The position numbers and the translations under genes were made by a program. A stretch of 64,000 nucleotides of DNA from the NCBI GenBank assembly GCA_040954595.2, contig CM082578.2:17615912-17679911 (forward strand). Reading direction: 5' to 3'. Each line of letters opens with the position of its first letter. Within the stretch, counting starts at the first letter, position 1. A model generated the notes under the pieces. It was not told the DNA's origin. It did no database searches and saw only the letters and a program-made list of their open reading frames with translations. This DNA comes from Balanoglossus misakiensis. Lineage: Eukaryota; Animalia; Hemichordata. This document shows positions 1-49,400 of this stretch, piece by piece.

Positions 1-1256
1 GTCAACGGCAACACTGGTTGTATCAATAGAGCGATGAGCGCCGACACACAGAAGCAACGGCTACGGGGAAATGGCGAGTCAGTTATGCACCCTCTCCAGA
101 AAATGCCAAGAAGTTATGTTGATTTACCCAGGGAAGACGAAAACGCCATTCTCACTCGATTTGGAACGCCTGCGACGTTCGAAATCGGTAAAGATAAACA
201 GTATTTTGTAGCTATCCTTCGAAACCAAATGCTGTAACATTACCTCGATATAATGCAATTTGGATCAAATGCAAGCCATTCCCGATACCTTGTGTTTAAA
301 CGCGTTACTGAAAAATAACAGAATTGTAGTTGACAAACAGGACAGACCAACACAATTGACTGTTGCTTGATTTTGTTATTGCGTATTTTTCGTCTGCAGA
401 ATCTCCCGGTACGACTGACCCTGCGCAGCGACGCTGCAAAATAGCATTGCTGGGTTATGATGACACGGAAAAACATAAGCACATCATCGAGCAGCTGGGC
501 GTTCTGTGGATGGAGTGTGGCATCGACGTCATACTGCCATCATGGAGTGACAAAGAAATTGCAAAGACGCTGCCTTTGCCTTGGTACACCTCGGTGGCGA
601 GGGAGGTTGACAAAATTGTGCTGATCGTTTCTGAGGGCGTCAAGAGGCGATGGAAAGAACTTGAATCTGCTGGGGGAATGCAACAATGTGATGACGTCCC
701 CGCTACCCAGTACACAGCTGCTCATGTAAATAACATCATACTAAATATCGCTATCGATTTGATGTGCGTGGATGTGCAAAGAGGAGAGCTCCGCCACGAC
801 AAATACGCCCAGGTCCTCCTTCCTTACTCACGAGAGGACCAGACCATTCCGTTCTTGAGTAGAACGTACAGCTTTCCGCGCGACGTCGAGTCGATGTATT
901 TCTACCTCCTTGGTTGCAGGGAAAGTGAGCCTCGCACCAGGAGGACGGTGCCTGGCGTTCTGGACATAATGACTAACAGCAGCTGCGGCGTCGCACTGCG
1001 GAGGGACATCGAAGAGATGCAGAGATACGTCACCGAAAACCCAAACTGGTACCAGGACGAACACGGCAGTAACCGAGCATCTGCCGGTGCCTTGTCTAAC
1101 AGAGATTCAGCCTCGGGCCAAAGTAGCTCGTCATTATCAGATGAAACTCTCCAAGAAACATCGAGTCTGATGTATGGAAAGCAACAACAGCAGCAGCAAC
1201 AAAGAAGGGCCCCAGTTGTAAATGGCAATGCGTCTGGGAGATTTACATATATATAG
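1..1256 (+). CDS. SEFIR-domain gene A, 3' part only (probable IL-17 receptor-like); exons <1-187 and 400-1256
   Basis: Frame-1 exon ends at G|GTAAAG (187) and rejoins in phase 1 at TGCAG|AA (400). Terminal exon has SEFIR motifs KIALLGYDDTEKHKHIIEQL, VDKIVLIVSEG, KYAQVLLPYS, YSFPRDVESMYFYL and ENPNWY, then a Ser-rich/poly-Q tail. Same large terminal-exon layout as receptors B-D. The TM and ectodomain would lie upstream of the window, so receptor status is inferred. Confidence 0.8.
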
Positions 1257-1757: not shown

Positions 1758-4700
1758 TCACTGATAATACATATCCGAGCACACAGGGAGTGTCTGTTGG
1801 TTAGTGAAACCAAAACTGATCCTGTTCTGTTGCAAAGCGAAGTCGCTGATAGAGTCGTTTGATGCCAGGCTGGCTCGGTCTTCGGGTTGCTCTACGGGCG
1901 GCACGTACACGAATTCCTGCGTCCAGGAAAAATCTTCTGGTTCAGGGGGACAGTTTGCAAACCGGTTGATGACCTTTGGCAGCGTGTACGGGTGTGCGTC
2001 GGCGGACTCGACGGCAGCACCGCTGGCACGGAGAAACCAGTCGGGGTCATCGGTGACGAGGGTTTTCATCGAGTGCACGGCTTGCCGTAGGGTCTGTCCT
2101 TCTCGGCTTTGTTCAAGCATCGCTGACAAGTCTGGAACCGCGTAGGTCGAGGTGGCCGACATTTCGGGGACGTTGTAAAGAGTGAGATAGAATCTTTCAA
2201 TCTGAGACAGCAACTTGAAGTGACTTCCCATCGACCTGAGCGGTTCTGGAATGTCACTCTCACTAGAATAATCGAAGACGACGGTGATGTATTTTCCTCG
2301 TCTTCCGCAGTCACCCCCGGCGAAATCCTGTGATATTATGTTGAGCGCAGGTACGAAGCAGCCTCTGTCGACAAACTCAAAGCTGTTTTCGTTTTTCTTC
2401 TTTTTTGACAGCCCTTGCTCCCAACACAGCCTGGTCCCTTTGGATGCAACCACTATGATTTTGTCAGATTCAACGAACTGTCGGAAAAGCCACGTGGTGA
2501 TACCTTCAACTGCAATGTCATTCTCATTCCACAGCCCTAGATTGACCTTGCATCCACACTTTGCGGACAGAAACCGGGCGAATGAATCCACGACCTTAGT
2601 GTGCCCGTGACAGTCCTCCTTATATAAAATTAGCAGTCGTGGATTTGCTTCTGTAAAGTATAGGCAGAAGAGAACAAGAGTCACAGTAGAGGAAATCACC
2701 ACCAGACAATATTGAAAGGTGACAGATTTGCCATTGTCGCGCCAAAACTACAAACATATGCATATCAGAACGGTTATCCCAGACATTTACCATTCGGACT
2801 GGGCGAGAGTACATGTAAATGTTCGATGGGGTTAATGTCTAAGGGTTAACTGTCCTAGAACCAAACATGCTATAAAACCACTAATCAAATCAAAGATGAA
2901 CGTACGATCACAACATACATACGCGGAGGAACAAATCAGAATGTTGTTGATTGTATCTTACCGGGTTTGAGAGGTGTACAAGTCAGCCTTACGACCCCGT
3001 TCTCGATAGGCTTCTCGTCGCGGTGAGATGCCTCCGCGCTCGACGACCGGCGTTGTCGTCGGTAGCAGTGCAGCATCACCAAAGCAAGGGCTACTGCAGC
3101 CAGCGAAGCGCAACTGATGGAAACGGCCAAGGTCATAACATCCTTGTCCGTGGCTGACCCCTTGCTGCCTCTCTGCTGGGCAGTCTCAATGCTCACCCCG
3201 GAAGTGAACGATGTTGCCGTCTGAGGCGCGGCTGAGGTTTTCTCCAGGCTTGCTCCTGACAAAGGGGACACATCAAGAAATTCAGCAAAAAAGACTGAGG
3301 CAAAATATATTTAAATTTGAACAATTTTCTCAACAGCAACATGGCAAAAGACAGGACCTGAGAAAAACCTACTTGTTCTTACAACTTACCTACGGCGCAG
3401 CTATTATTTATTGCAGTGTAACCGACGTCACAAAAGCACCGGTATCCGCCATAGCGATCGACAGTTTCGCACCGTCCGTGCTCACCACATTCGTTGATAG
3501 AACATGGGTCCCCTTTTTGAGAAAGAAATTTTGAATCAGAAAAAATACAAATGGCGATGCATGTACACACGCGAGGTAATTTTACTCAGCTACTTTATCC
3601 TATGATTCAAGACCTTCACAACTTCAGAACCAACTTTTTCTTTTAGTTTATCGATATTGTCTATGGTGTGAGTTTGCAATCCACTTGAAAAGCCAAGGTA
3701 TACTGCTGGACGGCCGAAGGGATTTGTCCGGACGCCCGGCTAGACTCTTGTTATATTGGAAGAGGAAAACGACACGATAAGAATATCTCACAGGAAAAAA
3801 ATGAATATTTTGATGGAAACGTGAGTTACAGCATGGATACTTGGAATTTGAACTGTACTTCACATACTGGTAACAGTGAAAGACCTTGAACGGCTTTGTC
3901 TGCAGACGTGTACACATTTGGACGCCGGTTTTGGTTGCACCTGTGGAAAATAGGGATAGACGATGAGAACGAGGCTTGCATGACCTATCTCTGACCTCGA
4001 CGTCACGATCGTCATGCAGCAGACGGGAAATTTCCATTAACTCCTCAAAGATGCCACATGTACGTGTCCCCGTCCTGGGCTAACTCCGGATACAGCAAAA
4101 AATTTACGAAAACAAACACTTTCGATGTGCCATGACGTACAGATGCATTTCCTACGATAAAATAAGTTCATCACTCACCATGACTTTGTAGGGTCGAGGC
4201 CCGACCTGAACACCTTCGAATTTGAATTGGATGATTTTATCGCACCCAGAACTCAGGTGGTACGTCAGATTGACGCCACCATTGCCGGTGATTTCCTTCG
4301 TTTGCCCGTCCACTAGAAATTCCTGCGGTGACGAGGAACAAGATGGCGATCATTTCGAAAACTTGAAGCCACAGATTTTTCCGGCTAATGTTTATGGAAA
4401 TTATTCACTATCGCTCGGAGGTGCGGATCATTAACAGATTGTCTGACTGTGCTGCTCGCCCCAACTTTGAACTTTAGCAGTCACGTACAACGCGTTAACG
4501 ACTCCTGCATCGAGCCCTACATCCATTCAGGTATAGATTCAAGTAAAGTGAAGACGATGCAATCAATGAATTCACTCACCTTGTCAATGCTATTTATAGA
4601 AATGGGTCTGTAACCGTCCATTATGCTTATGACGTAATTTTCGAATTCTAATTCCTCGGGAGACTCCAAAAAATAGCCGTAAACGGTTTGATAATACGTA

Positions 4701-13900: not shown

Positions 13901-14330
13901 TGGTGAGTCGTGTTTTGGGTACATGAGTTCTATGTGTATATTTCAAACTCCTGCCAGGCGGTTATCAAGGCGGTTTCAGAGAGATATTTTCACCTTGATT
14001 AATATTCTCCCAGATTTATTTCACATCTGGAGAAATAGCAAGAATTCAAGTGGTGATAATTTAACCGCTTGACTGGAGACCTCAGATTTTTGTGGCTGCC
14101 TAATGTAGATGTTCATCATCACAATTAGCTTGCTCGGTCGACAAACGTTTCCCGCCCCTTCTTGTTAACCTACAGGCCTACTTTTCCCGAACGACACGCC
14201 GATCAGCGAAGCTACAAAGAAGATACGCCAACCCGGACGGCTTTTGTCAAACCAGTGCGGCGTTCACTTTGCGCGACATTGTCGGCAGCTTGCGTCGTCA
14301 CAACAGAAAGCAACAAAGAAGAAGCAATGA
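10945..14330 (+). CDS. EFCAB12: EF-hand calcium-binding protein, EFCAB12-like
   Basis: Phase-consistent exons 10945-11538, 11748-11843, 12140-12337, 12773-12926, 13138-13457, 13677-13902 and 14176-14330 (TGA). EF-hand pair IADYIHRQRIRLIELFMRVDKNKDWKVNKSQF / VDDLMMTLDTDENEELDYRHF. The N-terminal RKRIIVAPP motif resembles EFCAB12, recalled from memory and not searched. Confidence 0.7.
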
Positions 14331-16520
14331 ATCTGAAACTGAATCTGAATCTGAGGTTTTTGCGATGCAAGACCGAAACTGGTGATAAAGCAGATCTTGG
14401 AACATTTCGATAGTTTTCTGAGAGTCACTCAGCATGTAGTCTAGGGACCTCGACCAATAACAGACTTCTTTACATTGGATTTTGACAAGGTCAAACAAAA
14501 TAACTTAAGACTTTCCTAGTCCTTCTTCGTTTTTCATCCAACAACCAGGTAGTACTCTGGTTATGCGTGTCAACTCTTCAATGTTCGAAACTTTGTAAGG
14601 TTTCTGGCTATACTGTAGCACGTTTAAATTTCACCAAGCAGGGTTGGAAATATAAAGACATTTTATCTCCCGACGTTTGAAAAGTGACACCATGCATTTT
14701 GCTGTTGAAGGTATGTCGTTCCTGTGCGCGGGTCTCGTGACATCGTGCAGATAAAGATAATTACGTAAAGACAGCATAAGTTCTTTTATGTTCAATATTT
14801 TGGCAATTATAGATCTTTGAGAATAAATTCGATGTAGTCCAGAACGGATATGACGTGGCAGTCTTCAGGCGACAATAGGTTGTCACGTGGTCACTTCGCT
14901 GTAATCATTGCATAATACAGCTATCTCATTGGCTGACAGGCTGACTGCACTGATCCAGGTGCACATCGATTTGCAAAGCTGTATGCATGTACATGTAACA
15001 GTGTGTTTCAGCCACGTCATCAGTATGGACGCATACTCGGATATCTACGATACAGAGCATTCAAGCGAAGTGGAACGGTTTTGTTCTCAGTTTGACAACC
15101 CGATACCAAATTAGGCACGTGGAAGATTTCAGGCTCACGCGAACAGCACACAACGGGAAAAACAGAGATCTCGCGTACCGCAAAATACACACAGGTCTAC
15201 CACGTGGGGCATGTCAGTGTGGGACGTATGGGTATGAGAGCTGGAATATAACTCACTGGTCAAAATGTCTTAAGAAAACGTCACACAGCCCGGTACAATC
15301 CACGAAGGAGACAAGAACGCAAGTGAGACAGTACCCCTCCTCATTTTAGTCGCCGAGAAATGAAGGGGTGTTCAGCATGAAGGAATGACTGTAATACATA
15401 TGATAACACCCCCCCCCTCCGTCAGAACGAACTGATCGATTCATGCGTTCTCAGTTGTGAAACATCGAGATTAACTCAGAGATACAAACGATATGACAAA
15501 CAATTACTGACCATTAGATCGTATATTTCGAGAATATGACATATCTCCGAATAAATTAAATATATACATATGAATGCGTGTTCATTAGCCTGGTAGACAT
15601 GTTAGTACTGATTGAAAGAAAAACATGACATGGCAACTGTCTTTTTGGAAATGCGTTTTTCTTGGCCAGAACGACAGGTGAACTTGATCTCCCATAATCG
15701 AATGGGAAATTTATCTCAAATGTGATGGACTATAGTTGAGTACGAGTCGCTCATGTCAGACTTTGAGACACTCGTATTCCATTACAAGATCATGGCTGAA
15801 TGAGGAATGTGTAAATGTCCATGTGCCCATTGTCATGAATTCAATGCATATTCATAGTTTATTTTGTCGCATTGCGTTTTTTTACCCGGCGTGTGCGGTC
15901 AGTGCGCAGGCGTCCACGTGATTTGTTTTTCCCCGAAAGAATTTGGAAGTCCACGTGTATGCGACCCCGTTTCTTTTACCCAAGCAATTGCTGGAAGGAA
16001 GGTGGATACGACGCCCAAGTAAGTTCTGGACATGTCAATGCGATAGTGTGAGATGGTAGTGCGAATCTGAGGGGATATGATGACGAGTTTTTGATGTTAG
16101 CCGCCGTCGTTGATCAATAACGTTCCGGGTTGTGGGTTGAGTTAGAGTGTACAAATTCAGTATGCTTCATTGGCCTATAGTCACTTGCAGCCACGCCCAC
16201 GGTCCCTCCACAAACACGTTGCAGGGTATTTCGGTTACTTTCTGCTGTCTGTAACCAATTCCTCGTCCATTCTGATTTGAGAACAACTTCAATCGATTAT
16301 TTACAATAATTGTGTGCTTATTGCTCTGTTTACAATAAATACTGTAGAGTCACAGTTTACTTTAAAATCTTGGACCTTGTTAATTTCTAGGTAGCACACT
16401 TGACTCTCGTTTACTTTTTGTTAATACCGAGTCATAATAGTTTAAAATATGGGTAAATTAGTTTTGAAAGGTGACAAATTTTGATTATAGGTACTTATTA
16501 CAATCAATTATTATAGTCAA

Positions 16521-19500
16521 TCATTCTGACTCTTCTTCGTCGCTACTATCAATGTCAATTAATTCTGCCAGCCAGGGGTGGCCGCATTGCAGCAACGCTT
16601 CGCGGAACATGGCCACAGCCTTCTTAGTGTTGGGCAAGTTGTCTATTAAATGCCTCGTTTTGTCTGCGTCTGTTGTGATACTTCGAACGGCGGTGGCTAC
16701 TTGACTGCTTATCACACATTCCTGCTGGAGGAAATCTAAAAGTGGTCCTATACATGCAAGTCCGTCGATGAACTTAAATCTGTTGACAAGAAGGCATCTC
16801 TTTGGTTTGTCGTTTAACACGTTGTACTCCCAGACCTCGGTGAGTTTAACACACTCTGCGGGGATGTGCGTCTCTTTGGCCTCCATAATCCTCTTCAGGG
16901 CGCTGACTTTGTTCTTCAGTGTGCATTCTCGAAGAATCAGTGTGTACTCTTCGTGGGTTATGACCGCTTCTTGCAGCAAGATGTCCAGGCAGTTCTTCAC
17001 AAAGTCACCTGATGTAGAAGACATACACATCCATTACACATCACATGAGCACATTGGCGAGAAAGTCAACGTGCTGTATAAGTTGTATTCAATCAAATAC
17101 TTATAGCCACGTTGCTAAAGATATCACCGAGCTTGCAGATCTTGCAGATCACCTACCTTCACAGAATCCAATATTTTCCCCGTGACTAATCAAAGTCCAC
17201 ATCACAGACATGTGCTCCAGGTCTCGCTTGGCGTCTTTAATGCTTCTACAGAGTCTTTTTCCCGCGCTGCATCCACCGATGTCCCTGATTTCCGGGAAAG
17301 AGACGACCCCTTTCCTGTGCAACAGTCTCCCATAGAAAGTCTCGATAGTTGACGGCTTCTCGCACGAGAGTTCATGAACGCGACTCAGATGATCAACGAG
17401 TTCTCTTGGCAGCTCACCTTTCCCGCTATATTCAAAATAGGCGGCAAAAACCCTGTCATGTCCAGGTTTCCTTGGCTCCTTCACGATGCGATCTATAATG
17501 TCTAAAATGTCCTTGGTAAATGGCTCTGTTTCATTTGCTTTATTTTGAAAAAGCTCAGTCAGCTTTTTGGACCCAATAAGAATGATTCTATCGGCATGGC
17601 CGATTGTCGCAACAAACAACTCAAATTTTTCCTTGTTTGTACATTCTGAGATGTCTATTATTTCTACAACAGTCTTTATCTGACGATGGTGTTGTAAAAA
17701 CTTTGCAAATTGGCGTGCGGCCCTGTCCTGCTTGTGTCTATCCGGTGCGTGAATCAAAGTGATCGTCTTTGGCTCGGCGGGAACAGGTCTTCGGATAAAC
17801 TTCACGTATCCATCTGAAAGATCTGCAAGATGGAGGAAGTCATTAATTGGGGGACAAGCGCTTCTTAGATACAGATTTAATCAACTTGAATTCGCATAGG
17901 TCTAACTGTTCAACAGTGCGGTTAATTTCTAAGATGGTTCGCTGAAACAAAAACAATCGGTGATCTCAGTTTACTACATAGTGCCGCTATTCAAGAGGCA
18001 GACCAACTCACCTGTATCAGCTCCAGTTTCTTTCGCCTCTTCCTCTTCCAGCTTCAGTGTGGCAAGCGTCTTTTCCTCCACGTGATCTGCAGGCAGATTC
18101 TGAGCATCACGGTTTGCATCCACGGTGACGTCACCTGAAACGTGTTGAAAGGACTATGTCTGATTTTTGAGGCTGCTCAGCTATAAATTTAAATATCGCA
18201 CGAGCATCGCAAAAACGTCCTTCCTTAAAGCGATCCAATTGCAAGCAAATGTGCCTGATTTAGAAACTCTAAGCAGTGTCTTCCCTTCTCTTTGGTATGC
18301 AAACAATGTTGGCCGTTTGTTTCATATGACCCGAAATATTTCAACTACTGAATTACTGTATCAGTAGCTAAAGAAAATCCAGAGTGCCCCTGACTGTACC
18401 GATAATTATGGCGGTGTATAATGATGATTGATGTCCTTGTTATTTGAACATTTTTCCCCTGAAGTACTTTGGTGTAGCACGATGTGACCCTTGACACGGA
18501 AATGCTAACTAGTCTTTTCCCTCTCAGACTGTGTGTTTTAGCTGTTTTTAATGCAATCACGTTCGACTAATAGTCCATTAGGTGCTCAAATAAACGTTAC
18601 TATAATGAAACGGACCGGTATTTCTTACTGGAAACACCGTGCACGGACATACTGAAGCTTCTGAATGGATTGTTTATGTGACCTGATAATATGTCTTTTA
18701 AATTGACCTTCCTCTTTGGGGTCACCGTGACTCAACTTCCGAGATTCTTGTCAGCCATGCGTGGTTGTTCTGAAGACCAATGCATGCTTTGCCCAGTCCA
18801 GTATGTATTTGGGTTACTTCCGTGATTTTATTTTTGTTCAGACTGTGCCAAAAAATAAAATGTATGGCGGTGTGCAACGATAGGCCGATTCATGGACTAA
18901 ATTACTCCTTATGGACTATTTCCATGGTCCTCATCAGAGAAAAAAAAACGTTTCTGAAAACATTTGCTTATTCCTAACGTGATGCAAAGTTCGGTGTACA
19001 GCTTATTTTTTTAAAAACTTAATGATATCAAGTTGGATTGAATAAGATGTTGTTGTTTTGTTGCATTGTTTGTACACGATTGTTGCAACAACAAACATTA
19101 TTTTGTAAGAGTAGCAAACAAGAGTCTCAAGTGATGTTCTCCTTTTCCGCTAATTATTTCCTTGTGGCTTCTCTACCCGGAAACTGTTCAAAGTAGGTCA
19201 AAGATGCATATGATCTTGTCGCATGCAGAGTTTTAACGTCACGGCAATCTCATGAGGGGTGAACCATTTGATATGGGCGCGATCTGGATGATTTTTGCAG
19301 AGGAAAACAATCCAGGAGATACCCCTGAAAAAATCGGCCACAGTAGACAAAAGAAAAACAGATGCAAACTGAAGTGGATGCTAATCGAGCACCGGAGGAA
19401 CCTTCGAATTTGGGCTTCTCGTGTCTGTCTTTTTGCAGCGAAACCGATGTTGAAAAATGAAATTCAATATTAAACTTCTACTTATTAAATATACAAAGCT

Positions 19501-19933
19501 TCTCATTTAGCACCTTTTGTGAGACTTTAAAGACAATTGCAATATTGCAATAGTGTTTTCTCAAAATTCTACATCTTAAGGCTATGGAATATGTTAACCA
19601 TAAACTGTACCTGGCTGGTAGTCTCCTACCTTAAGGTGGCTGCATATTTTTTGTTGCAAAAACAGATAGTATGTACATGTAAGCATGACTTAGGGACAAA
19701 ATTTTAGGGAAAAACTGATCATAGCGTAAATAAAAAAAGTACTTACGCTTAGTTGTCGAATTTTAATCAAAATTCCGCGCTCCCTTTTCGTTGGGTATGA
19801 ACAGAGCGGAACTTAAACTAGTACAGTAATGATTAGGACAAGACAATGGCATGCTACATCTCCACAAAATGATGCCTCAAGACGCGTCTGTTTTTTCGTA
19901 CTCACCTGTAGTCGGTGTGTCAAGAGTTGCCAT
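16521..19933 (-). CDS. Cytoplasmic SEFIR + tandem CARD-like adaptor, gene X (Act1/CIKS-like analogue)
   Basis: Exons 19933-19906 (MATLDTPTT), 18134-18012, 17822-17157 (SEFIR-like ITLIHAPD..FAKFL, ADRIILIGSK, RVFAAYFEYS) and 17008-16521 (CARD-like CLDILLQEAVITHEEY; LLVNRFKFIDGL..LLDFLQQECVIS..KTRHLIDNLP..FREALLQCGHPWLAELI). All introns are phase 1. No signal peptide or TM. The first exon is the least certain. Confidence 0.8.
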
Positions 19934-23075: not shown

Positions 23076-24847
23076 ATGGCATGTGCAGGTAAGTGTGGAA
23101 TTGTAGTTAGGCCAGATGTAACTTCACAGAGAACCAATGCAGGTTGACGTACATGCCACCTTGACACCTGTTTGATTCTGTCAACCTCTTACAATACCCG
23201 TACCTTAGAATACCGACCGTCACTAATAAGCGAAATCTCGACCCCCAGATAGCGTGCGTCACTTCTAACATACTTTATATGCAAGCAGATGTTTTTGCTA
23301 ATGAAGTCTGCGCTTAAATGTGACTTCAGCAATGTGTAACGTGATAATGAATTGGGCTATATCACTCGACGCAGCGCGTTGGAGTTTGAGAACGTCACAA
23401 ATGTGGGTGGGCTGCCTTTATAATAATCGCGCACAATCGCGTATGTCAGAGAGAGGTTTCAGTGCTGGTAAATTTCCGATCACCGTTGGTTATATTTGTT
23501 TGAGGAAAAAGTTTGATTTTATAATTATTTTTTTAACGTGTTTATTTCCGCTACACAGGTCTAAACCAGCATGCGTACCAAGATCGAGACAGGCATGGGA
23601 CAGACTCTACCGCTGCCTTCGTTTTTTTACCGGACGACTCTGGACAAACGGCCATAGTCCATGCATTTTGTGATCTGATCTCACTTTTTGCCAACGAAAG
23701 ATCTACTATCAAGAAATTTAACCTGTCAAAATTAAATGACACGCAATATGCAAACGACGCGATCAGGGACTTCAATGAATCCGACAAAATCGTGTTGGTC
23801 ACATCCAAATCATTGAGGAGACTTTGGTATCAACGTGTCGACGCGGATTATTTTATTGCGGCTCTGAAACAAAGACTATCTCAAGATCCCAATAATGTCT
23901 TCGAAATATATTTCGAGTACATCAGTAACGACGAGCCGACCAAGAAAATAGCGAACACCCGTCACAAGATTTGCCCCTTTCAAACAGCAACGATAGCAGA
24001 ATTCTGTGCCGTGCTAAACCCCTTCACAGACAGAAGTTCAATGACCCACATTGAGAACACGGTCTGCAGTACACAGCAATGGAAGAAATTTGTAGACAGT
24101 ATTCGCGAACTACAGACGCGGGAAATACGCATGTCTATACAACATGTCAGAAAAACTGGATTTTCGCCATGTAAGTATAGAATTATCTCCATCCAGCAAC
24201 ATTTTCAGCGTCTGCCATACATGATTATAAATTCATGCTATTAGAATTATAGCTCTATAATTAAGTTTGTTTGGTCTTGTTTACAGGTGACATAGACTTT
24301 TGCTGTTTGGATGTCCTGCTTCAGCACAAGGTCATAACCGAAGTCGAACTCCAAATGGTCAGGCAGCAAAATAAACCACGGAAAAAGTTGCTCGCTGTTC
24401 GGCATACCATCGCGGGGAAGGTGAACATCTTCCCCGAATACCAGAAACTGGTTGACGTGTGGTTAGACAACATCGGGAGAAAATCCCACGCCCTTTTCGT
24501 GAACAAACGGCTCGTTCTCATTGATAATATCGGACATGACGTCAAGCGAATGGTGGATTACCTCATACAGGAAAACGTCATCACCGTTCACGCTGGCGAG
24601 GTCATTACCATGGGAACAGCCCAAACCAGCGCCAGACAGCTGTTGGACGAGTTGCCAAAAAGCAAGCGGGCGTTAGTGGCTTTCTGTGACGCATTGGAAA
24701 TGTGTAATCCGGGCCTTGCTAAACACCTGGACCTTAGAACGTGGATGAATGATTATGACACTGCGGAGAACAGTGGACCAGCATGTCTTCCTGTAGACAA
24801 CGGTAACTACGCACAACGTGTCTGTCTCTCTGTCCGTCCGTCTGTCT

Positions 24848-24878
<31 letters not shown>

Positions 24879-26630
24879 TGTATGTATGTCTGCCTGTCTG
24901 GCTATAATGCCATTTGATATTTGCTGTTAATATACTTTAATTCAATGTTTCTGTTCCTTGTTTATAGATGATGTGGATGGCAGATGCATCGTCATGTCAT
25001 CTATCGCCGATCGAGACTCTGGTTTGGATGTTGAAGACACTAGCGTGAGCGTGCCAACTATTCAAAAACCCACAGCCACAGAACAACTTGGATCTCCAGC
25101 ACTCCTGAGCAAATCTTCATGTCAAAGACAAAGAAGACATCGCCAATACTCTCTTTCCGGTACCCAAGTCCGGTACCAAAGTTGGGAGAGCACTGCCACT
25201 GACAGTGGTTACTGTGCAGAACACGTGGATGGCGACGATTGCTGTAGCGAGAATGGCGACGACGGTGGACTTTTTCAGCCAAACAAACTGACATACATGT
25301 ATGCTGGTAAGTGTAGTGTGGTGTGGTGTGGTTCTGTGCTGTCCTGTGATCTAATTATGTCATCTAATTCAATCTAATGTAAGCTTCACTACAGACGTGT
25401 TTTAATTGGTGTTATGGTGTCATTGAAGGTTTACAACCAGTGGATTCGCTGGAGGTGCTCAGCGTGACGTCAGATTCCGTGCACATGCGTTGGTCTGTTT
25501 CGCCGCACAACACTTCGACATCGCACCGACTCGGCTATCGTGTCACGTGCCTCCAGCTGAGCGGTCAGAGCAAGAACAGAGTGCGCTTAACGGAAGTGCT
25601 GGAATCTCCCTCTTCTACGTTGTCCTGGAAACGAGGTTGTCTGGCCGCTGGTGACTACCGCATTTCAGTGTCCGTGTTGTACGGTGAAAACAGTGGTGAT
25701 CAGCCTTGTCCCAGCGAGGCAAAATGGACAAACGTCAGGATTGGCGGCAGTGAGTACATCAACGCATTGTATTTTGAGGGACAGAGTAAATATCGGTTGT
25801 GCATCTCGATAACCAAGAGACCGACAAAGTCATTTCGCCGCAAAATCTCGGGGCCTGGCGGGTCCACGACACAGAAAGAAAATGATATTGAACATGTTTT
25901 CTCTAGAAACACATCTCTCCAAACAAGAGGCAAACGATGGATGATCGAAGTATTCGTACATGTTTTTTTCCAGATAAGCTTGGAGTGTTTGGTAAAGTTT
26001 TCCGTAAGAAATTGTCACTCTCCAAGGAAAGTTCGGATGACAGTTACAAAGGTAAAAATCTAACTATAGTTTTACATTCTCCTTCATATATATACGGGCT
26101 GCATTGTATGTTAAAATCACAGGGAAACTTTTAATGTGCCGGAGAATCATTCAAGTGGGACTGGACCTTCAATGATCACTGCGTCTCACGTGACTAGACA
26201 GGCAAGACGCGTCACGTAGATAGTGACCAATGAGCACTGAGGCAGGGTACCGACCAAGACTAGAACATTCAACACATTGGGATTTGCCTTATTTTCTCGT
26301 ACAGTACTCGTCAACAATGTGACTCCTGGTCGTGAAAGCAGTAAATCGTCAGTCAAGACGTTTGAAGTCTTGGAAGATGAAAGCATCGGTTCCAACGCAC
26401 ATCATGACGTTGGAGAGGTGAAACCCGACAAAACCGAAGTTGTCATGGCTGCCATTCTACCTGATGCCGAGGAGAGAGCATGGACCAACCCGAAATCGAC
26501 GACTCGCAGTCGGTGCTACGCAATGAGTGGACCGATGGAAAGACCAACATTTACCAGCAGCAGAAGAGAGGGGCTTACTATACGGTGCCAAGAGAAGTCA
26601 TCAGATTCTGTCTGTACCACCAGTCTGTAA
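23076..26630 (+). CDS. Cytoplasmic SEFIR + tandem CARD-like + DSG-motif linker + FnIII protein, gene Y
   Basis: Exons 23076-23088 (MACA), 23559-24170 (divergent SEFIR AFVFLPDD..IVHAFCDLI, SDKIVLVTSKSL, NVFEIYFEY), 24287-24802 (CARD-like x2: LDVLLQHKVITEVE; MVDYLIQENVIT..ARQLLDELP..AFCDAL), 24968-25306, 25429-25749 (FnIII PVDSLEVLSVTSDSVHMRW..GYRVTC..YRISVSVLY), 25974-26051 and 26305-26630. All introns are phase 1. Confidence 0.8.
24819..24900. repeat. (TCTG/TCCG/TATG)n compound microsatellite
   Basis: tctgtccgtccgtctgtctg... in the intron after the CARD exon of gene Y. It explains the VCLSVRPSVCLS tail of the raw ORF. Confidence 0.9.
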
Positions 26631-28274: not shown

Positions 28275-31200
28275 TCAGAGATACGTGTCTTGTTCGTCGT
28301 CAGACGCACACTGATCAAAAACTCCGCTGTCTCTTTCTCGTTTGCCTGCATGTGGGACATTGTCCATTTTTTCTTCCAAGCAGTGGTTGACATGAATGAA
28401 TACGCCCGCTTCCCGGACATTCCCGGGAGAGGGTTCTTCGTCTGTGGAAAGAAACAATCAGATAAACCGTGAGAACACAAATAATGACTAAAGAATTTAA
28501 TAGGGAAAATAGACTAACATGGAACCCAAATATTGTTCACGTGAATGCGTTTCGTTTGAAAATCTGTGATTGGATATATACGATTTCCCCATGGAAACAG
28601 TAGTTAAATTTGCTTTAATGACCGTATACATAATTAATGGTCAGCCACAAACATAGATGTGAAAATGTACATTTTGAACAATTTGTTTTAGGCGTTTATT
28701 TTCCCAAGTACTTTTGGCTTTTGAGACAATTTCCAGTATTGTTTTGTTCATATTGTATGTGTGTATTCTGGCGCCTGGTTTCGAATGTCTTTTTGGTTTT
28801 CATACCCAAATACAACTCACTTAAATTTGGAATCCGAATAACGCAAATTGTAATACCCGCATTGTCTAAATAAAACGACTTAACCACTTATTTAATAAAA
28901 GTGATATTTATTACTTCATGATGAAACGTTTCATCATCAAGAAAACCACAGAAGCTGACGCACTCCACGATCAAAATCAACATAAACGGGACAATTATAT
29001 TCTATTGGCCACTTCAACTAGGGAAAACCTTGAAACGATTTATCAAGTTCAGATGATCCAATACTAATACAAGTTATCATCACCTTTGATGTCATGGCCG
29101 ATCTGTTGTGTTGTGAGTGAAGGGTCCTCCTCAACACTTTCTGTAACTTGCTTCGGTTTTCTATTCGGCTTCGCCCAAGCACTCACCGCGTTGGCCCGTG
29201 GGCGAGACCGCACGCGCATAGAGTTGGACCGGATCACGCTGAGTCTTTTACCGTACACAGAGGTTGGGCGACTCGTAGTCCTGGTCTCGACGACCCCCTT
29301 GTCTGTACACTGTGAGCTGTGAAGCGAAGTTGGTCCGACTTTCTCGGCTTCCGCGCTGTTTCCTCCGAGTCGTGCGCCGTTTCCTCGGCAGGTTCCCTTG
29401 TCACCGATGATGTCGCCGCGATTGTCGGCAACTACAATCGATTGTCGAACGATGCTCCGCCTGTGAACCGCTGTACCCCCGGATTTAGACACTCGGCTGA
29501 CCAGTTGACACTTGCCTATAACCATAAAAAATACAGCGGATTGCTACCAAGGGTGTTGAGTGACACGTGGATCGCAATTAACCTGTATTGACAGCACCTA
29601 TGCAAGATGCTAAAGAAAGTCGATACATGTATTTATTTGTGTATTCATGAAAATAAATAGATTTATCATATGAATCCAATCACATGAATCATAATCCGAA
29701 TCCGAAATTAACTGTTTGCTCCCACACCACCATCCATCCATCCATCCGTCCATCCATTCATGTCATCCATCCATCCATCCATCCACCCACCAATCCTACC
29801 ATTCTGTTCGTCACGGGCCACACGTTACGTACACATTTGTCAGCCTACCAAACGGTGAATTCTTGGCGAAGCCACCAGTCCGATATTAATGGCAACCCAC
29901 CCGCAGTCAATCAAGTACTTCAAGGATTAGCGACAACTTACTGTGCCCGACGGTGACATGTGTCCACTTGGCGGGGCTGAGTATATTTTGCTTTTCACCC
30001 TCGTACATCACCGACACTGAAATACGGTATTCACCCCGGGACAGGCATCCTCGTTCCCAGCTCTTAATAGAAGGGGACTTCATCACATCGCAGATAGGTG
30101 GCGAGGTATTCTTTCCCCCGATGCGGAGACACGTCACGTGGTACCCGGTGTGATTTGATATCGTTTCCGGCAGAGACCACCGTATGCGCACAGAATTCGA
30201 CGTCACGTTCAACACTTCAAGAGACTCGACTGGTTGGAATCCTGTAATTTTGATATTTGAAAGATTTACTTCGCTATAAGTTGTGGACAGATGTTTCATC
30301 GTTGTTTGAGAAAACTCCCAGAATGCACATGGATATTGCCCCTAATCAGCCCCCTGTAACAGGCGATCTTCATATACCATAACTTGGATCTGTTTACAAA
30401 AATATATATATATAACACAACTATTTGTTAAACACCACAAAAAATTAATGTATCCCCGAAAACGTAAAAGCAATTAGAAGACTCATTTTCAATTTAGTTT
30501 CTTGGCCGCCGAAAGGGTAATATCTTTAGAAACGTATGTTATATCGGTGGTGGCAAAATATGGGGTTTGTTTTAATCTCCCTCGCTTCCTGAAATTCTAC
30601 CCGCAATAAGTTGGTAAAATTGGGGTTAACGTACAGTGTACCAGGAAGTGCGTTAGAATGTTGTAACATGTGTCTATGAGGTGGGTTCTATAACAGGTGA
30701 GAGACTATGTTGTACAAGGAACCTGATCTGTTTATTAAGAAGGCGCATGCCTACCGGGAAATGACACTGGAACAAAGAGAGACTCCTCGCTGAGCTTTGA
30801 ATTCAACTTCGGTTTCTGAGCATCATCAGACTTGTCTGTCGCGGATACATGTTTTTCGCCATCGTCAGGGTCATGGTCATCCTCTGAACTCGGAGACTCG
30901 TTATCGTCTTCGTCGAATTCTTTGCATAATTTGCTGTATTCTTCTTGTGAGACGGTCACTTTTACACGAACGTCTCTCCCCTTGGCAATTCTCTTCACAT
31001 CTTCGTTAATCAGGAGTTTTTGGAGGATCTCTTCCAATTCGCCTGTTTGACTGTCTTTATACAACCGCTGCAAACCCGGTTTGTTCTTGACTTTCAAAAA
31101 CAAGAGTATGCAGCCGATTTTGAGATCGCTGATGTCGACCGAGTACTTTTTGTCCAGCGTAGCGTCGTGAGTTAAGCGTAGCCGACCTTTAACTATGTAC

Positions 31201-34200
31201 TCTTCGATATCTTTCACTGTGGATTCGCCGTCGCTTGAATCTTCGCCCGAATCTGAATCCAATTGAACTATCTCTACCACCACCCTCAGGGTTTTCGGCT
31301 TGCCACCTGGAAATGAAGAGAAAAGTGTCAAGCGATAATATACAATGATAATAGTCAAACAGAGATATACACAGACAGATTTTAAAACAAGAAACCCTAT
31401 AAACTGGCATCACTACATGCCTGACCTCTACACATGGACGAGTGTGAGTAACCAAACCATTATACCATATGAAATTTACCTGTTGTCTTCGCGTACCGTA
31501 CCGCTACCGTTTTTTGACTTCCTGAAAAAATAAGAAAAAATACCTGCATCATTTCCATTCATCATCCCTAAAGCAGTTTATCATAAAATAATTTACAATG
31601 TGGTCCACATAATCTCCAGCTTTTTGTTCCTGCATTGAGTTTAGAACTACATGATTATAGTTTTTTGCGTCGAATTCAGTACAAAGCGTACTACTAGTAT
31701 ATTCGAATAACATCCTAATGAGTGTGCATTGAACCTACCTGCCTGGTGATCAGGTGTGATCGACTTTTCGGCAGATTCCAATAGTTCAAACAGATGCGGA
31801 TAAGGATCCCTAAGAGATTCTTTAAATTTCTCATAGACAGCATCGGTTGGCGGGAGTTCACTCAAAAGGCGGCGGGCTTTACCGCGCATGGTCGGCTCGG
31901 CCATGATGACGTCATACGCCGAACGACTAATGGCGTCTTCTTGCAAGAGGTGGTCTAACACGTACTTCACTTGTAAATCCTGAACAATTTTAGTCAAATT
32001 CTGTCTCACGGGACCAACATAGTCTTTAGTTGCTAGTTGTCTGTAATGTTCCAACAAATCGGCATTTTCCAGATCCAATCTTCCCCCATCCGCTGTGAGC
32101 ACATTTGTTAACTTGTTCACTTTGTTGAAGAAAACCTTCTCTTCCAAGATGCCATCATAATACTTCTTCTTAATGACTCCTTTTTCATACAGCGCGTCCA
32201 AATAACCATCAAAGTCCGCTGAAATAAGGAAAGGAATTATGTGAAAATTCTTTACTGTGTTGTCCCTAAAAGTGCCCTTAACAGCTTACTCACTGAGGCT
32301 ATGAGCACAACACCACACACCATATCACACACGTGTAGATATTTTGATCACCTCTAAGCTACCGTGCACTATCTGTACAAACCTGGACAAAGGGCCCCGT
32401 GGGTTTCCGTCCATTCTGGCTCCCCACTCTCCGTAAAACAGGCAGAATCATGCTCAACGACATTGGTGCTTTTGCCCTTCCGCGGGAATTTTTTGCTGAT
32501 TCTTTTCCGGTCATGCGCACTGGAGCGTCGTCTGCTCGTGTAGCGACGTGTGACGGTGCTGAACCCACCAAAAGAAATCGCTTTCCGAGTTTTAACACCT
32601 TCGCCCAAGACGTCGATACCCGAGTCTCTGTGTGAATATTGCCAGTCTGTCTCGTTCTCCAGGCCGCTGTTCTTATCTGTTGGTCAAAAGAGTTGATTTT
32701 ATTATCATATTGGTTAACATACTCAGTCATACCGCCAGTCTCAGATAATCACTGTGACATTTTGGATACCAATGACAACAGTAATGTAAACTCATACACA
32801 GAAATCACAAACGTTGTAATTCAAACATGCACATATACGCAGATTCACAAATAAAACTCGATGCAGCTTAACTAAATTCGGCCCATAAGACTAAAAATTG
32901 TAATGTTGGTCTACGGTTTACCTTTAGTGGGACCATTTGTACCTCCACCGGTCGTGACACTGGCCGCTTGACAACCTGTAGCCCCCTCCACAATCCCAGA
33001 GTCGCGGTCTTTGTTTGGACATTTCATTTCAAGGCTTGGTTCTGGTTCTGTTGAGGAATCGGTTTTCAAAGGGGAGCCCGTTTAGTATTTCTCATCGAGA
33101 TCGCTGTTTTCTTATATGCAAATTCCTTCTACCGTGGTGTTTAAGTATATTGCGGTATTTGCATTTCCTACCTGACTTGGAAAGTCCCTGTGAGTCAGTG
33201 TCCAAGACTACAAAGGCTTCCACAATAATTCAGACATCGGCTCAACTTCCGCAAAGTCGGTCAACTGTGACTACCCTTGCCACAGTAGCCATGTTTTGAC
33301 CACGAAGGAGGAACTTAAAAGTTTCAACTCACTACGATCAGCAACTTTAACAATAATTTGGGACTCAAGAAATGTTTAAAAAAATAATACTAGTATTTGC
33401 CGTCAGTTTTTAAAACCCAAAATAATTCTACTATCATGATGACAGACTTGAAGTTAAATTGTAAGCTCACAAGACGAAAAGAGAGGCTCGTGATATGGTG
33501 TGTCGTGTCCCCCATAAAAATAGTTTGTTTATCAGCCACTATAAGCCATAGGTGACTGCTCTTTCTGAATTATTGGTCACGTGATAATGACGTCACTCTT
33601 TACAGTTGCTTCTTTCCTCCTGAGAAGGAAATGTTTAGATTCATTCACACACCATCATTTGACGTCAAGTGTGACGAGCACTTTCCTCGTGATCTATATT
33701 GAACCTGTCAGAACAGTGCTTGGCTCTTTACACACTTTGGGACACTTACTGTCTCTTTGCAAACATTAATACACTCACGCAGTACACACAGATTGCATAA
33801 TTTCGAGCGTGGTTTCACTGCCCTGGTAAGTTAGCAGTTTTTTTCATACGCTACTGCACGTAATCATTTAACGCTGGGAAAGTGACTATCACCGAGTACA
33901 ACAAGCATTGTGTCTATGTCATACAGAACTAAAATGGGTAGAAGACAATTGCGACATTTTGTCCACAAACGACAAGATATTGAAAGAGGAAGTAAAGCGT
34001 TGACCGGTGGACTATTGACGACAGCGCAATTGTCTTCCTACAATGCCATTTTACATCACAGAAGAATAGCCGTCTTTGCAGTCGCATATGCCATGACGTT
34101 GCACCATTTTACTGTGATCAGCTGAATTCTTTGACGGCGTTTGTCGATGAGTAATCGACTACTACTTCCCCATTTTAGCATCGTCCAGATAACACCGCTT

Positions 34201-46401: not shown

Positions 46402-49400
46402 TCAAAGCAGCATAACTCCACCTTGCTCTTGCTGCTGAACTATAGGGTCTGTGCTTCCACTGTGAGTGGAATTATAGTCACTGGTAGAGTTGATTGCATT
46501 AGATGTTGAATTTTGCATGTTAAGGCTCAAAATAAAGGACCCATTTGAGTCACTGGAAGCAACACTGGTGGCATCCGCTTCTGGTATTACATCGTGCATT
46601 GTATGATTGTACGGTGCCTGTGTTGGGGGCTGATCCCAGTAATTCGAGCGTTCAGAGGTTGGTGAAAAGTCTTCCGTCGAGTAATATCCTGTGTCAATCT
46701 GGTTTGACTTGGGGGGATCTGTGCTGGATTCTGTCTCCCCATCTAGTCGAGTTTGCTGTTCTGGGATTTTCACCTTCCGGGATGACAGCCGTCGCTTGCT
46801 GCGTGGCTTCGGGACAGGGTCAGCGTCACTCGGGTGGTACTCTGCATTCATGTAACTAACATCACTGCCATTGTGATTGGTATCAGCTGTCATGCTGGGT
46901 TTTTTACCATTGGCTTGGTGATTTTCACCCTTGGATACAGGGAAGCCATTCATGACAACAGTGCTGTTGGGATGGTTGACGTACGTCACATTGGGCGCAT
47001 TATTCAGTGAAACAGCCGGGTGGGCGTCGCCGCTGGTTTGGAGAAGATCGTACCACTGTGGGTTGCTGCTGACGTGGCTTTGGATGTCCGCAATGCTTTT
47101 GTACAAGTTCTTGCCTTCCTTACTGTTTTTCATGTCACTGAATCCCTCCACTTGTCGGTGGCCCACAGGTGATCCCAAGGCCAGACCGCGCAGGTGAATG
47201 TAGAAGTGCTCCATCTTGTCCGGAAGCTTGAAGGTTTTCCCTGCCAGAACTTTGGACACCTCGGGAATGTGCTGCTGTTCTGAATAACCGGGGATGTCAA
47301 AATAAACATTGACATACTTGTTCAGGGGGATCAGACTTTTTTCCCCAGATACTGCGGCAGACTTCATCAAGCCCACCGCATACGAAAACAAACCATTATC
47401 CTCTCCCGTTTGACGAAGAGTTTGGGTTCCTCTCGACCCAATGATGACAATTTTGTTGGCTTGCTTCATCTCCTCGGTGATCCACTCTGTCATATCAGCT
47501 GCTACCGTGTTTGTTTCCCAGTAGTCAAACCTGACTACACACTGCAGCTGGCAATCAAGGAAGGCGGCAAAACTCTGCACCAGATTTTTGTGATTGTCGC
47601 CATCTTCAGAATAGAGAAGCAACACTCTCGGATTTCCAATGCCTGGAAGACATGAGACAAAAATAACTGACATAACGGTGGCAAAGTCGCTTTCTTTTAA
47701 AACCAATTTGGCGATTCATGTTCCTACATGTATGTATGCCCACTCATGGATTGATTCTGCTACAAGCAAACAAACAAACAAACAAGCAAGCAAGCAAGCA
47801 AGCAAGCAAACAAACAAACAGAAAAAAAATGAAGAAAAACCCACCTTCAACACTATCTGAATATCTACCACCTTTATGAGGAACTTTAATCAGAGCTGAG
47901 AATAGAAACAGAAAAAGTTCTAACATCATTATCACTAGCAACAAATTAAAGTAAAATATATATAATATTATATAATTAATGACATCAAAACAGTCCCAAC
48001 AATCATTATCATTCAAGGTTAAAGCAAATGAAATCATCGTTGACGGGAATGAAAGCCCTATTATTGTGTCCTTCATTTTGCACAGTTGAATCCCCACGCC
48101 CTCTAACAAGAAGTAACATGGCTGTGAGCCAAAACAGCATTACATGCATATTTGTACTTACGGTTAGTTACTTTCTTCCAATAACAGAATGCTAAGATGA
48201 CAATTAAAGCTGCAGCTATAAGTGAGCCCAGAACAGCTACTACAATAAGCACTGGATCTGTAACTGTGTGTGAATCAAAAGAAAATATTTCAAATCCTTG
48301 GAGCTGTAATTTTTTTGCATTTTGACCTTGAAACAAAAATCCCTACGATTGTTGAAGATATGTTTTGCATCCCATCATTAATCCACATTACTTTTCAAAA
48401 TGTTCAGTTAATCAAATTCAGGTGCTTATATGGATTTTGTGTACTCACTGATGGAAGAAATTGCTGATATGCTATAAAGTGACAATTCTGGCATGTATCG
48501 TATAGTGACTGAAGTTCTGTGTCCTCTTCTTGGCAGTCATATCAATATTTGACTTGAGGCTAGTGACTTGACTCCACGGAGCAAATAATATGGCCTAGTG
48601 GAAAGAGTTGGTGTGGCTGTGTATAGTCACACTAGCTGTTCTTACCTTGAGTACACTCGTAATCCATGTACGCATAGCCATTAGAACAGTTGCAGAAGTA
48701 ACTATCCTCCAGTCTAATGCACTCACCAAATTCTCCACATGTTACATCAAAGCAAAAGTCCACTGGAAAGCAATGATTTTTACATTTTATTACAGTATAT
48801 TAGTTAGCCTGGAAAATCCGTCAAAATGAGCAGACATGAGAGGGATTTTCCAGCCATTTATTTTAACAGTTGAACAGTCTCTCATTTCTTGGATTCTAGT
48901 CTTTTTCACTGATGACACACACACTGGATGATGACTATTTTGACCAAAAATGACAGGAACTTTCTGGCAAAATACAAATTGGCCGGTTTCGTCCAAGTCT
49001 GAACAAGTGCTGACTTAATTAAAATAATCCCAGTGAACCTGGTATACTAGTACATATCCATTTAAGGCTGTTTTGACAAGTTGTTTTAAAGAAGTTGAAG
49101 AAGATGACGGATTGGCCGGGTAACAAAAGTCAAACTGACAATCAAGATATCTTGCATATATGCTCCACATTGCAGATGGCTGACTTGCCTACCTTTACAG
49201 GTGATTTCAAAATAGTATCCTTCTGTGCAGTTGCACCAATAGTATGTGCTGTTCCATGATGAACAATTACCATGTTTCCCACACGGATCAGATAAGCATG
49301 GGTCCGCTGTGATGGGAAGAGCAGGGGGGGAGTTAGAGACAGTGATGTAGAGCACAGTAATGTGCATAACAAAGAAACAACTACCATATTTAACATTGGT

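What the first reader, a model, noticed from the sequence alone, without database searches (positions are those of the whole stretch)
16521..19933. Gene X: minimal SEFIR-CARD-CARD adaptor
Seen: a short N-terminus, one SEFIR-like exon and one exon with two death-fold-like repeats (first partial or divergent, second a full CARD-like unit), with no TM. The SEFIR is N-terminal, whereas it is C-terminal in Act1. Established: bipartite adaptors such as MyD88 (DD-TIR) and ASC (PYD-CARD) bridge receptors to effector filaments, and tandem CARDs drive RIG-I and NOD2 signalling. Inference: X is a SEFIR-to-CARD converter for the neighbouring receptors.
Basis: partly seen in the sequence, partly recalled or inferred. 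Interest (0 to 1): 0.8.

Follow-up and report, generated by a model that had tools for sequence, protein, structure and literature searches.

The report
Acorn-worm SEFIR–CARD–CARD immune adaptor family
This acorn-worm gene, sitting among IL-17 receptor genes, is predicted to join an IL-17-receptor-type signalling domain (SEFIR) to two caspase-recruitment domains in one membrane-free protein, a combination found here only in acorn worms, which likely links IL-17 receptors to caspase-type immune or cell-death signalling.

Summary
Four minus-strand exons with GT-AG, phase-1 introns give a 434-aa frame (431 with a nearby acceptor) with no membrane segment. It carries a SEFIR domain (Pfam 28.8 bits, cut-off 23), a divergent CARD and a full CARD. 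No RNA was available here, but RefSeq proteins from three acorn-worm families have the same order of domains, and two of them align without a gap across the SEFIR/CARD junction. In 1.84 billion representatives, 6 of 150 listed hits carried the whole architecture, all from acorn worms.

X is one of a small family, with paralog Y next to it. CARD1's predicted first helix lies in the SEFIR exon and is predicted to continue the SEFIR's last helix. The SEFIR looks receptor-derived, not Act1/CIKS-derived.

The 'converter for the neighbouring receptors' role is untested. Both filament-forming faces differ from the receptors' faces, so a capping inhibitor or a receptor-independent platform remain real rivals. 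Ten literature searches found no SEFIR-CARD protein. Verdict: a new variant of the SEFIR/TIR–death-fold adaptor kind.

The parts
19906..19933 (-). Gene X exon 1 (ATG, 9 codons plus 1 base)
   Evidence: GT donor, phase 1; in-frame stop upstream; Glandiceps homologues begin with the same first three residues
18012..18134 (-). Gene X exon 2, acidic, poorly conserved N-terminal spacer; can be skipped in frame
   Evidence: AG/GT, 123 nt; its 3' end resembles P0001; Glandiceps isoforms differ in this part
17157..17822 (-). Gene X exon 3: SEFIR core (about 17772-17320), receptor-type extension with helix alphaF (17319-17200) and the predicted first helix of CARD1 (17199-17158); alternative acceptor at 17813
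   Evidence: Pfam SEFIR 28.8 bits; profile match to receptor SEFIRs through alphaF, probability 99%, E 5.4e-18; homologue model matches IL-17RA SEFIR, Z 15.3; coordinates
16521..17008 (-). Gene X exon 4: rest of CARD1 (to 16821), complete CARD2 (16808-16551), acidic tail, stop
   Evidence: Pfam; model pLDDT 83.8; CARD2 matches Apaf-1 CARD, TM 0.82-0.85, rmsd 1.2-1.6, Z 14.7
23076..25749 (+). Paralog Y, head to head with X: SEFIR-like exon 23559-24170, CARD-CARD exon 24287-24802, linker 24968-25306, FN3 exon 25429-25749; 3' end not resolved
   Evidence: Open spliced frame with phase-1 introns; same intron position between SEFIR and CARD exons as X; ortholog P0007 in P. flava. Its own Pfam SEFIR score is weak: 13.4 bits, E 0.095
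29942..32218 (-). Gene Z (boundaries approximate, 5' exons not resolved): the same CARD-CARD exon without a SEFIR, then TRADD-like N domain and FN3
   Evidence: Pfam CARD, TRADD-like_N (22.8 bits, under cut-off) and fn3 (23.5 bits, under cut-off); 71% identical to P. flava P0005; phase-1 acceptor at 32218
1758..2650 (-). SEFIR exon of IL-17-receptor-like gene R2 (TM exon near 3130-3070)
   Evidence: Pfam SEFIR 102.7 bits; TM hydropathy 2.37; several exons match receptor P0117
36354..37576 (-). SEFIR exon of IL-17-receptor-like gene R3 (TM exon near 38400)
   Evidence: Pfam SEFIR 77.1 bits; Ig_ILCR1 ectodomain hit E 0.0015, under cut-off; TM 2.34
46402..47642 (-). SEFIR exon of IL-17-receptor-like gene R4 (TM exon near 48200)
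   Evidence: Pfam SEFIR 67.6 bits; TM 3.17
400..1256 (+). SEFIR exon R1, receptor-type in sequence; upstream exons were not found in the window
   Evidence: Pfam SEFIR 46.3 bits; phase-1 acceptor at 400

Best explanation
Gene X is predicted to encode a cytosolic SEFIR-CARD-CARD protein that likely arose from an IL-17 receptor tail fused to a CARD-pair exon, and that would dock on ligand-clustered IL-17 receptor SEFIR domains and so cluster its CARDs to recruit a caspase or another CARD protein. Shown: the frame, the domains, no TM, the family in three acorn-worm families, the place in an IL-17R cluster. Predicted: SEFIR with alphaF running as one helix into CARD1, a five-helix CARD1 and a six-helix CARD2. 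Inferred: receptor origin of the SEFIR; docking on a receptor assembly as an incoming or terminal subunit; CARD2 as the outward-facing binding unit; a CARD-dependent output (caspase activation or NF-kB) parallel to the Death-domain CIKS route. No binding or signalling step was tested.
For: Architecture and splice model. Family: 6 of 150 listed hits match SEFIR and CARDs in one stretch at 244-676 bits, next best 117; they are RefSeq models of P. flava (3), S. kowalevskii (2) and G. talaboti (1 representative, 2 loci), three families of Enteropneusta. The junction is the best-kept part: I262, H264, G265, G269, F270 in exon 3 and D274, C279, L280, D281 in exon 4 are kept in 8 or 9 of 9 members. 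Folds: P0001 model pLDDT 77.8, pTM 0.67, helix 262-292 continuous; IL-17RA SEFIR Z 15.3, rmsd 2.9-3.1, 165-170 residues, including alphaF; MDA5 tandem CARDs Z 12.8, rmsd 3.0, 141 residues across both CARDs. Receptor origin: 17 SEFIR-only hits examined all continue 48-472 residues past the SEFIR, and 15 of 17 have an upstream TM-like stretch; Foldseek ranks IL-17RA (4nux, E 4.6e-4) above a 177-residue chain of 9OT1 that is probably ACT1 (E 0.039); all six SEFIR exons of the window start with a phase-1 intron 4-19 codons before the first strand and hold the whole domain. Precedent: SEFIR domains build a double-stranded filament seeded by receptor tetramers (PMC12828022); Death-SEFIR CIKS binds IL-17R and signals in amphioxus (PMC11087794).
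Against: No binding evidence; neighbourhood alone is weak. The BB-loop tryptophan (6 of 7 aligned receptors, 4 of 4 in the window) and the alphaB tryptophan (7 of 7) are missing in 9 of 9 family members, and 9 of 9 carry about four extra residues between strand E and helix E that none of the 7 receptors has; these are the BB and EE faces that join subunits along a strand (PMC12828022). Saccoglossus has a canonical CIKS (XP_006818304), so the receptors need no new adaptor. A family-only profile found no SEFIR structure at E up to 10, and P0001 and P0009 have no Pfam SEFIR hit at the thresholds used. The alignment behind the full model held 7 receptor sequences of 18 rows, which may bias it towards the receptor fold. 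The tree had no CIKS, so receptor origin is not tested phylogenetically. The tandem-CARD match to MDA5 vanishes in the exon-4-only model (rmsd 9.9). No conserved TRAF motif.
Confidence: 0.5

Rival explanations
1. X is a brake: its SEFIR would cap or poison receptor/CIKS filaments because its BB face is degenerate and cannot be extended, and its CARDs would act as decoys or recruit a negative regulator.
For: Both receptor tryptophans of the BB loop and alphaB are lost in 9 of 9 members while helix E residues (T209, E211, F213, L217) are kept in 8-9 of 9. No enzyme domain and no conserved TRAF motif. CARD-only inhibitors ICEBERG and ARC are among the structural matches, though no better than activating CARDs.
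Against: A cap does not need two conserved CARDs fused through one helix. The ACT1 BB surface listed in PMC12828022 (D445, G449, I450, D451) has no tryptophan either, so the loss does not by itself mean a dead face.
Confidence: 0.23
2. The family works apart from the receptors: X, Y and their paralogs would assemble with each other through remodelled SEFIR faces (or hold their own CARDs shut with the SEFIR) and act as a cytosolic platform or guard, for instance sensing tampering with IL-17 signalling, with Z as a CARD partner.
For: The family's SEFIRs form their own branch (100/100 against 21 receptor-type rows) and both along-strand faces differ from the receptors'. Several paralogs and the SEFIR-less gene Z, which shares the CARD-pair exon, are kept together. 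The rigid SEFIR-CARD1 link would suit auto-inhibition.
Against: No sensor domain in X. The stay inside an IL-17R cluster is suggestive of shared function, though tandem origin alone explains it.
Confidence: 0.22
3. The SEFIR and CARD exons are not one gene, or the joined models are shared annotation errors; the product would be a SEFIR-only protein ending at the stop just inside intron 3.
For: No RNA run could be laid on the locus (no evidence either way). Read-through of exon 3 meets a stop one codon into the intron. RefSeq models are predictions.
Against: The same 116-148 nt phase-1 intron joins the two exons in X and Y; the junction motif is kept in 8-9 of 9 proteins from four genomes; exon 4 has no start of its own that would give CARD1 its first helices.
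Confidence: 0.04

Closest known systems
CIKS/Act1 (TRAF3IP2), ancestral Death-SEFIR type T1 of PMC11087794; C. elegans ACTL-1 (PMC7190641)
   Same: Cytosolic, no TM, one SEFIR plus a death-fold domain, so it could work as the same kind of bridge.
   Different: [quoted passage not shown]
IL-17 receptor cytoplasmic domain (IL-17RA type)
   Same: Best structural match, with alphaF; profile match through alphaF; same exon layout as the window's receptors.
   Different: No ectodomain or TM; BB-loop and alphaB tryptophans lost; the conserved tryptophan after alphaF is replaced by CARD1.
Placozoan MyD88-like proteins with TIR plus CARD, and SEFIR plus DD (PMC6321704, passages)
   Same: A STIR-superfamily domain joined to a death-fold domain in a small predicted adaptor.
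   Different: There CARD goes with TIR and SEFIR goes with DD; SEFIR with CARD is not reported. No tandem CARD is mentioned in the passages seen.
Tandem CARDs of RIG-I/MDA5 (and NOD2)
   Same: Two adjacent CARD units; the full model aligns with MDA5 2CARD over 141 residues.
   Different: C-terminal, no helicase or NACHT sensor; CARD1 is predicted to have five helices and scores under the Pfam cut-off.
ASC (PYD-CARD) and MyD88 (DD-TIR)
   Same: Two-part design: receptor-binding domain plus effector-binding death fold, no enzyme.
   Different: Not homologous as whole proteins; their domains are flexibly linked (recalled), whereas SEFIR and CARD1 here are predicted to share a helix.

Membership tests
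SEFIR domain (PF08357) | Pfam score above the curated cut-off | tested here: met
   X exon 3: 28.8 bits against 23. Among homologues P0002, P0008 and P0010 pass, P0007 is just under, P0001 and P0009 have no hit
SEFIR domain (PF08357) | Five-strand, five-helix TIR-like fold closest to solved SEFIRs | tested here: met
   Tested on homologue P0001 (46% identical to X exon 3): five strands, IL-17RA Z 15.3 above TIR domains at Z 9.9 or less
SEFIR domain (PF08357) | Homotypic SEFIR-SEFIR binding | not tested
   Needs a binding assay; filament-face residues differ from receptors
CARD (PF00619), unit 2 | Pfam cut-off and six-helix CARD fold | tested here: met
   44.6 bits against 23.9; Apaf-1 CARD Z 14.7, rmsd 1.8, 88 residues, above Death and PYD domains at Z 8.5 or less
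CARD (PF00619), unit 1 | Pfam cut-off and six helices | tested here: inconclusive
   Exon-4 part alone 20.3 bits, E 5.5e-4, under cut-off; five helices in the model, no separate sixth; aligns with MDA5 CARD1 in the full model
CIKS/Act1 | C-terminal SEFIR | tested here: not met
   SEFIR at residues 68-218 of 434, CARDs after it
CIKS/Act1 | N-terminal Death domain or long N-terminal region with U-box and TRAF sites | tested here: not met
   Only 67 residues precede the SEFIR; no Death hit; no TRAF motif shared by the family
CIKS/Act1 | SEFIR groups with CIKS in a tree | not tested
   No CIKS sequence was among the proteins fetched; tree lacks it
IL-17 receptors | Signal peptide, FN3 ectodomain and TM | tested here: not met
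   Highest hydropathy 1.28 in X; 0.83-1.59 in 7 homologues
IL-17 receptors | SEFIR followed by helix alphaF (RA, RC, RD, RE per PMC12828022) | tested here: met
Bipartite signalosome adaptors (ASC, MyD88, CIKS as a working class) | Two interaction domains, no enzyme, no TM | tested here: met
Bipartite signalosome adaptors (ASC, MyD88, CIKS as a working class) | Recruited by an activated receptor, polymerises and activates an effector | not testable with these tools
   Needs cell or biochemical assays
RIG-I-like or NOD-like receptors | Helicase or NACHT domain | tested here: not met
   No such Pfam hit in X or its homologues

The most novel reading that the evidence does not exclude
Acorn worms built a second IL-17 adaptor from a receptor's own tail: a rigid SEFIR-CARD-CARD unit that copies the receptor filament into a CARD array and fires caspases directly, an IL-17 'death/inflammasome' branch that no animal is reported to have in the papers searched. 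The paralogs X, Y and W and the SEFIR-less Z would be a receptor-matched set of adaptors and regulators kept in one cluster.
Probability: 0.25. Interest if true: 0.8.

Novelty: new variant of a known kind. Interest (0 to 1): 0.57.

Why it matters
The 2024 survey of the IL-17 pathway lists four CIKS architectures, all by loss of parts from Death-SEFIR, and its text and two held supplements never mention a CARD. A SEFIR-CARD-CARD family kept across three acorn-worm families would be a different solution: an adaptor made anew from a receptor exon. If it activates, IL-17 signalling would be wired straight to CARD effectors in a deuterostome. If it inhibits, it is a natural cap of the newly solved SEFIR filament. 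The proteins are small and soluble, so both can be tested in the cell assays already used for amphioxus and human IL-17R. The scope is narrow (one class of animals so far), and domain shuffling of TIR/SEFIR with death folds is common in marine invertebrates (recalled), which limits the surprise.

Tried and rejected
No whole genome is held for the window, so a CIKS gene, caspases and further paralogs outside the window could not be sought. Complex prediction of X SEFIR with receptor R2 SEFIR was not available; PMC12828022 also reports that AlphaFold failed on SEFIR dimers. A second Atlas search, on the SEFIR exon alone, did not complete; the first (P0002) gave only leads under 0.9, headed by Death/SEFIR clusters at 0.82-0.83, and none of the 9 rows shown (of 30 hits) carried CARD. 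A word search with P0002 returned only itself, missing even P0001, so that tool is too blunt for range claims. NF-kB sites: 8 matches in the window against 5.7 expected (26 of 100 shuffles as many), none between X and Y; rejected. TRAF motifs: one TRAF6-like match in X only, inside the SEFIR fold; rejected. X as the tail of an upstream receptor: rejected, since the next upstream genes are Y (other strand) and Z, there is an in-frame stop before the ATG, and homologues start the same way. X as an inverted Act1: disfavoured, not excluded. Earlier findings of this scan: none. Literature: ten searches; 'SEFIR-CARD' gave 0 papers; the library lacks most subscription journals, including the Act1 evolution paper cited in PMC7190641, which I did not see.
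Full report
1. Is the gene there? The window is animal DNA with spliced genes. On the minus strand, four exons (19933-19906, 18134-18012, 17822-17157, 17008-16521) have AG acceptors and GT donors, all three introns are phase 1, and the join reads as 434 residues with a single terminal stop. A second acceptor at 17813 gives 431 residues. The highest hydropathy window is 1.28; three neighbouring receptors reach 2.34-3.17. Exon 3 passes the Pfam SEFIR cut-off (28.8 against 23 bits) and exon 4 has two CARD stretches. Alone, CARD2 scores 44.6 bits and the exon-4 part of CARD1 20.3 bits, under the 23.9 cut-off.

2. Are the exons one protein? No RNA run was listed and no genome is held, so this rests on relatives. 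A search with exon 3 among longer proteins gave 2 hits of 510 candidates, both 46% identical: P0001 (Ptychodera flava, XP_070559427) and P0002 (Glandiceps talaboti, XP_078000844). Both continue into the CARD pair. The joined X aligns to P0001 (48%) and P0004 (44%) with no gap at the junction; P0002 has one extra residue beside it. These are RefSeq predictions, not experiments. But residues on both sides of the junction are kept in 8 or 9 of 9 family members, and paralog Y has the same short phase-1 intron at the same place. I put the spliced gene at about 95%.

3. How far does the architecture reach? A profile of 7 rows was run against 1.84 billion representatives: 179 hits at E up to 0.001, 150 listed, 29 not seen. 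Six match SEFIR and CARDs in one stretch at 244-676 bits; the next scores 117. Two of the six (P0001, P0002) were in the profile, and P0007 is the ortholog of Y, whose exons were. The six are P. flava (XP_070559425, 427, 429), Saccoglossus kowalevskii (LOC144360022, LOC144360026) and G. talaboti, that is Ptychoderidae, Harrimaniidae and Spengelidae. Of all 154 stored proteins, 8 matched both a family SEFIR and a family CARD profile, all acorn-worm, 7 of them training rows. So the family likely dates from the common ancestor of these three families. Absence elsewhere is limited by what the library holds and by the 150-row cut. The window is likely from an acorn worm close to Ptychodera: gene Z is 71% identical to P. 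flava P0005 over its CARD exon.

4. The neighbourhood. Y (23076-25749 and on, plus strand) faces away from X and reads SEFIR-CARD-CARD-linker-FN3. Z (about 32200-29900, minus) has the same CARD-pair exon, a TRADD-like N domain and FN3, but no SEFIR was found. Four receptor-type SEFIR exons lie at 400-1256, 1758-2650, 36354-37576 and 46402-47642; three have a TM exon in the window, and R3 and R4 have ectodomain and EGF-like exons (read by eye). In P. flava the accessions of Z, Y, X and a fourth paralog run 422/423, 425, 427, 429 on a contig of the same length. In Saccoglossus the Z-like protein is XP_006812311 and a listed IL-17R is XP_006812313. Synteny is inferred from these numbers only.

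5. Structure. P0001 was folded as a stand-in, because X's own CARD1 is split by an intron: pLDDT 77.8, pTM 0.67 with about 100 low-confidence, mostly terminal residues. It shows a five-strand SEFIR, then one helix (262-292) that runs from the SEFIR extension into the segment placed as CARD1's first helix, four more helices, and a six-helix CARD2. Best matches: IL-17RA SEFIR, Z 15.3, reaching IL-17RA residues 582-587; Apaf-1 CARD, Z 14.6, rmsd 1.6; MDA5 tandem CARDs, Z 12.8, rmsd 3.0, over model residues 299-450. In that model the pair does not match MDA5's arrangement (rmsd 9.9) and CARD1 was barely tested, so the tandem geometry is a lead only. Seven of the 18 alignment rows behind the full model were receptor SEFIRs.

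6. Where the SEFIR came from. It looks like a receptor tail. A family-only profile aligns with a receptor profile over 182 columns through alphaF (probability 99%); PMC12828022 describes alphaF in IL-17RA, RC, RD and RE, and describes ACT1's short C-terminal extension as beta strands. The 17 SEFIR-only hits examined are receptor-like: 15 have a TM-like stretch upstream, 2 begin under 30 residues before the SEFIR, and none is Death-SEFIR (one search counted 18, one not examined). Foldseek puts IL-17RA (E 4.6e-4) above the 177-residue 9OT1 chain, probably ACT1 (E 0.039). All six SEFIR exons in the window begin in phase 1 shortly before the first strand and hold the whole domain. The simplest history is a copy of a receptor's last exon joined by phase-1 shuffling to the CARD-pair exon also used by Z. 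Against: a family-only profile found no SEFIR structure at E up to 10, and the tree, which sets the 9 family rows apart from 21 receptor-type rows at 100/100, had no CIKS and no true root. About 75%.

7. How it likely works. Receptor SEFIR tetramers seed a double-stranded filament in which each new subunit docks its EE and CD faces on the BB and BC faces of those before it (PMC12828022). A soluble SEFIR with CARDs fixed to it would, once docked, hold CARDs in an array, which is how CARD effectors are nucleated (established knowledge, recalled). That is my best reading, at 0.5. The faces are remodelled, however: no family member keeps the BB-loop tryptophan (W368 of IL-17RB; present in 6 of 7 aligned receptors) or the alphaB tryptophan (7 of 7), and all 9 have about four extra residues in the EE loop. 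This fits a terminal or inhibitory subunit (0.23), or a family that assembles with itself apart from the receptors (0.22). Saccoglossus also keeps a canonical CIKS. No partner is identified.

8. What is known. PMC11087794 (parts 1-3 of 6, passages, and searches of its 2 held supplements) gives CIKS types T1-T4, with Death-SEFIR ancestral, and has no occurrence of CARD; its figures and SI figures are not held and could show more architectures. PMC12828022: parts 1-4 of 8. PMC6321704 (passages): placozoan TIR-CARD and SEFIR-DD proteins. [quoted passage not shown] PMC8662601, PMC11797021 and PMC12909245 (passages): no SEFIR-CARD protein. Other papers were seen as listings only. The proteins stand in RefSeq as 'uncharacterized'. 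So X is built like a bipartite STIR/death-fold adaptor, is not a member of CIKS/Act1 or of the IL-17 receptors, and its domain combination was not found in ten searches.

9. Verdict. Real gene, real and conserved architecture, function inferred. New variant of a known kind; interest 0.57.

Noticed in passing
window 23076-26900 (+): Paralog Y adds an FN3 domain after the CARDs, with no TM; P0007, P0009 and P0010 do too. A cytosolic FN3 on a SEFIR-CARD protein is unexplained. Y's 3' end is unresolved; a 146-aa open frame at 26465-26905 has no Pfam hit.
   Followed up: partly
window 29942-33000 (-): Gene Z and its relatives (P0005, P0098) use the CARD-pair exon without the first helix that X and Y take from the SEFIR exon, followed by a TRADD-like N domain and an FN3 close to Y's. 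It may be a partner or regulator of X and Y.
   Followed up: partly
window 36354-43420 (-) and 46402-60800 (-): Two tandem IL-17-receptor-like genes with several EGF-like exons before the TM; one ectodomain exon is almost identical between them (near 42050-41890 and 56165-56005), which suggests a recent duplication or conversion (read by eye).
   Followed up: no
window 400-1256 (+) and 1758-2650 (-): Two receptor-type SEFIR exons end facing each other about 500 bases apart, so the cluster runs on beyond the left edge of the window.
   Followed up: no
window 10930-14400 (+): An unrelated multi-exon gene with a weak EF-hand match (E 0.033) lies between X and receptor R2.
   Followed up: no
window 35420-35899 (+): A 159-aa cysteine-containing open frame with a hydrophobic start lies between Z and R3; it could be an exon of a secreted protein. 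Not scanned.
   Followed up: no
P0021 (Clavelina lepadiformis): A tunicate model with two SEFIR domains separated by an ectodomain-like part and TM; possibly two fused gene models.
   Followed up: no
window 17156-17149 (-): Retention of intron 3 would end the protein one codon after exon 3, giving a SEFIR-only product, a possible natural decoy isoform. No evidence that it is made.
   Followed up: no
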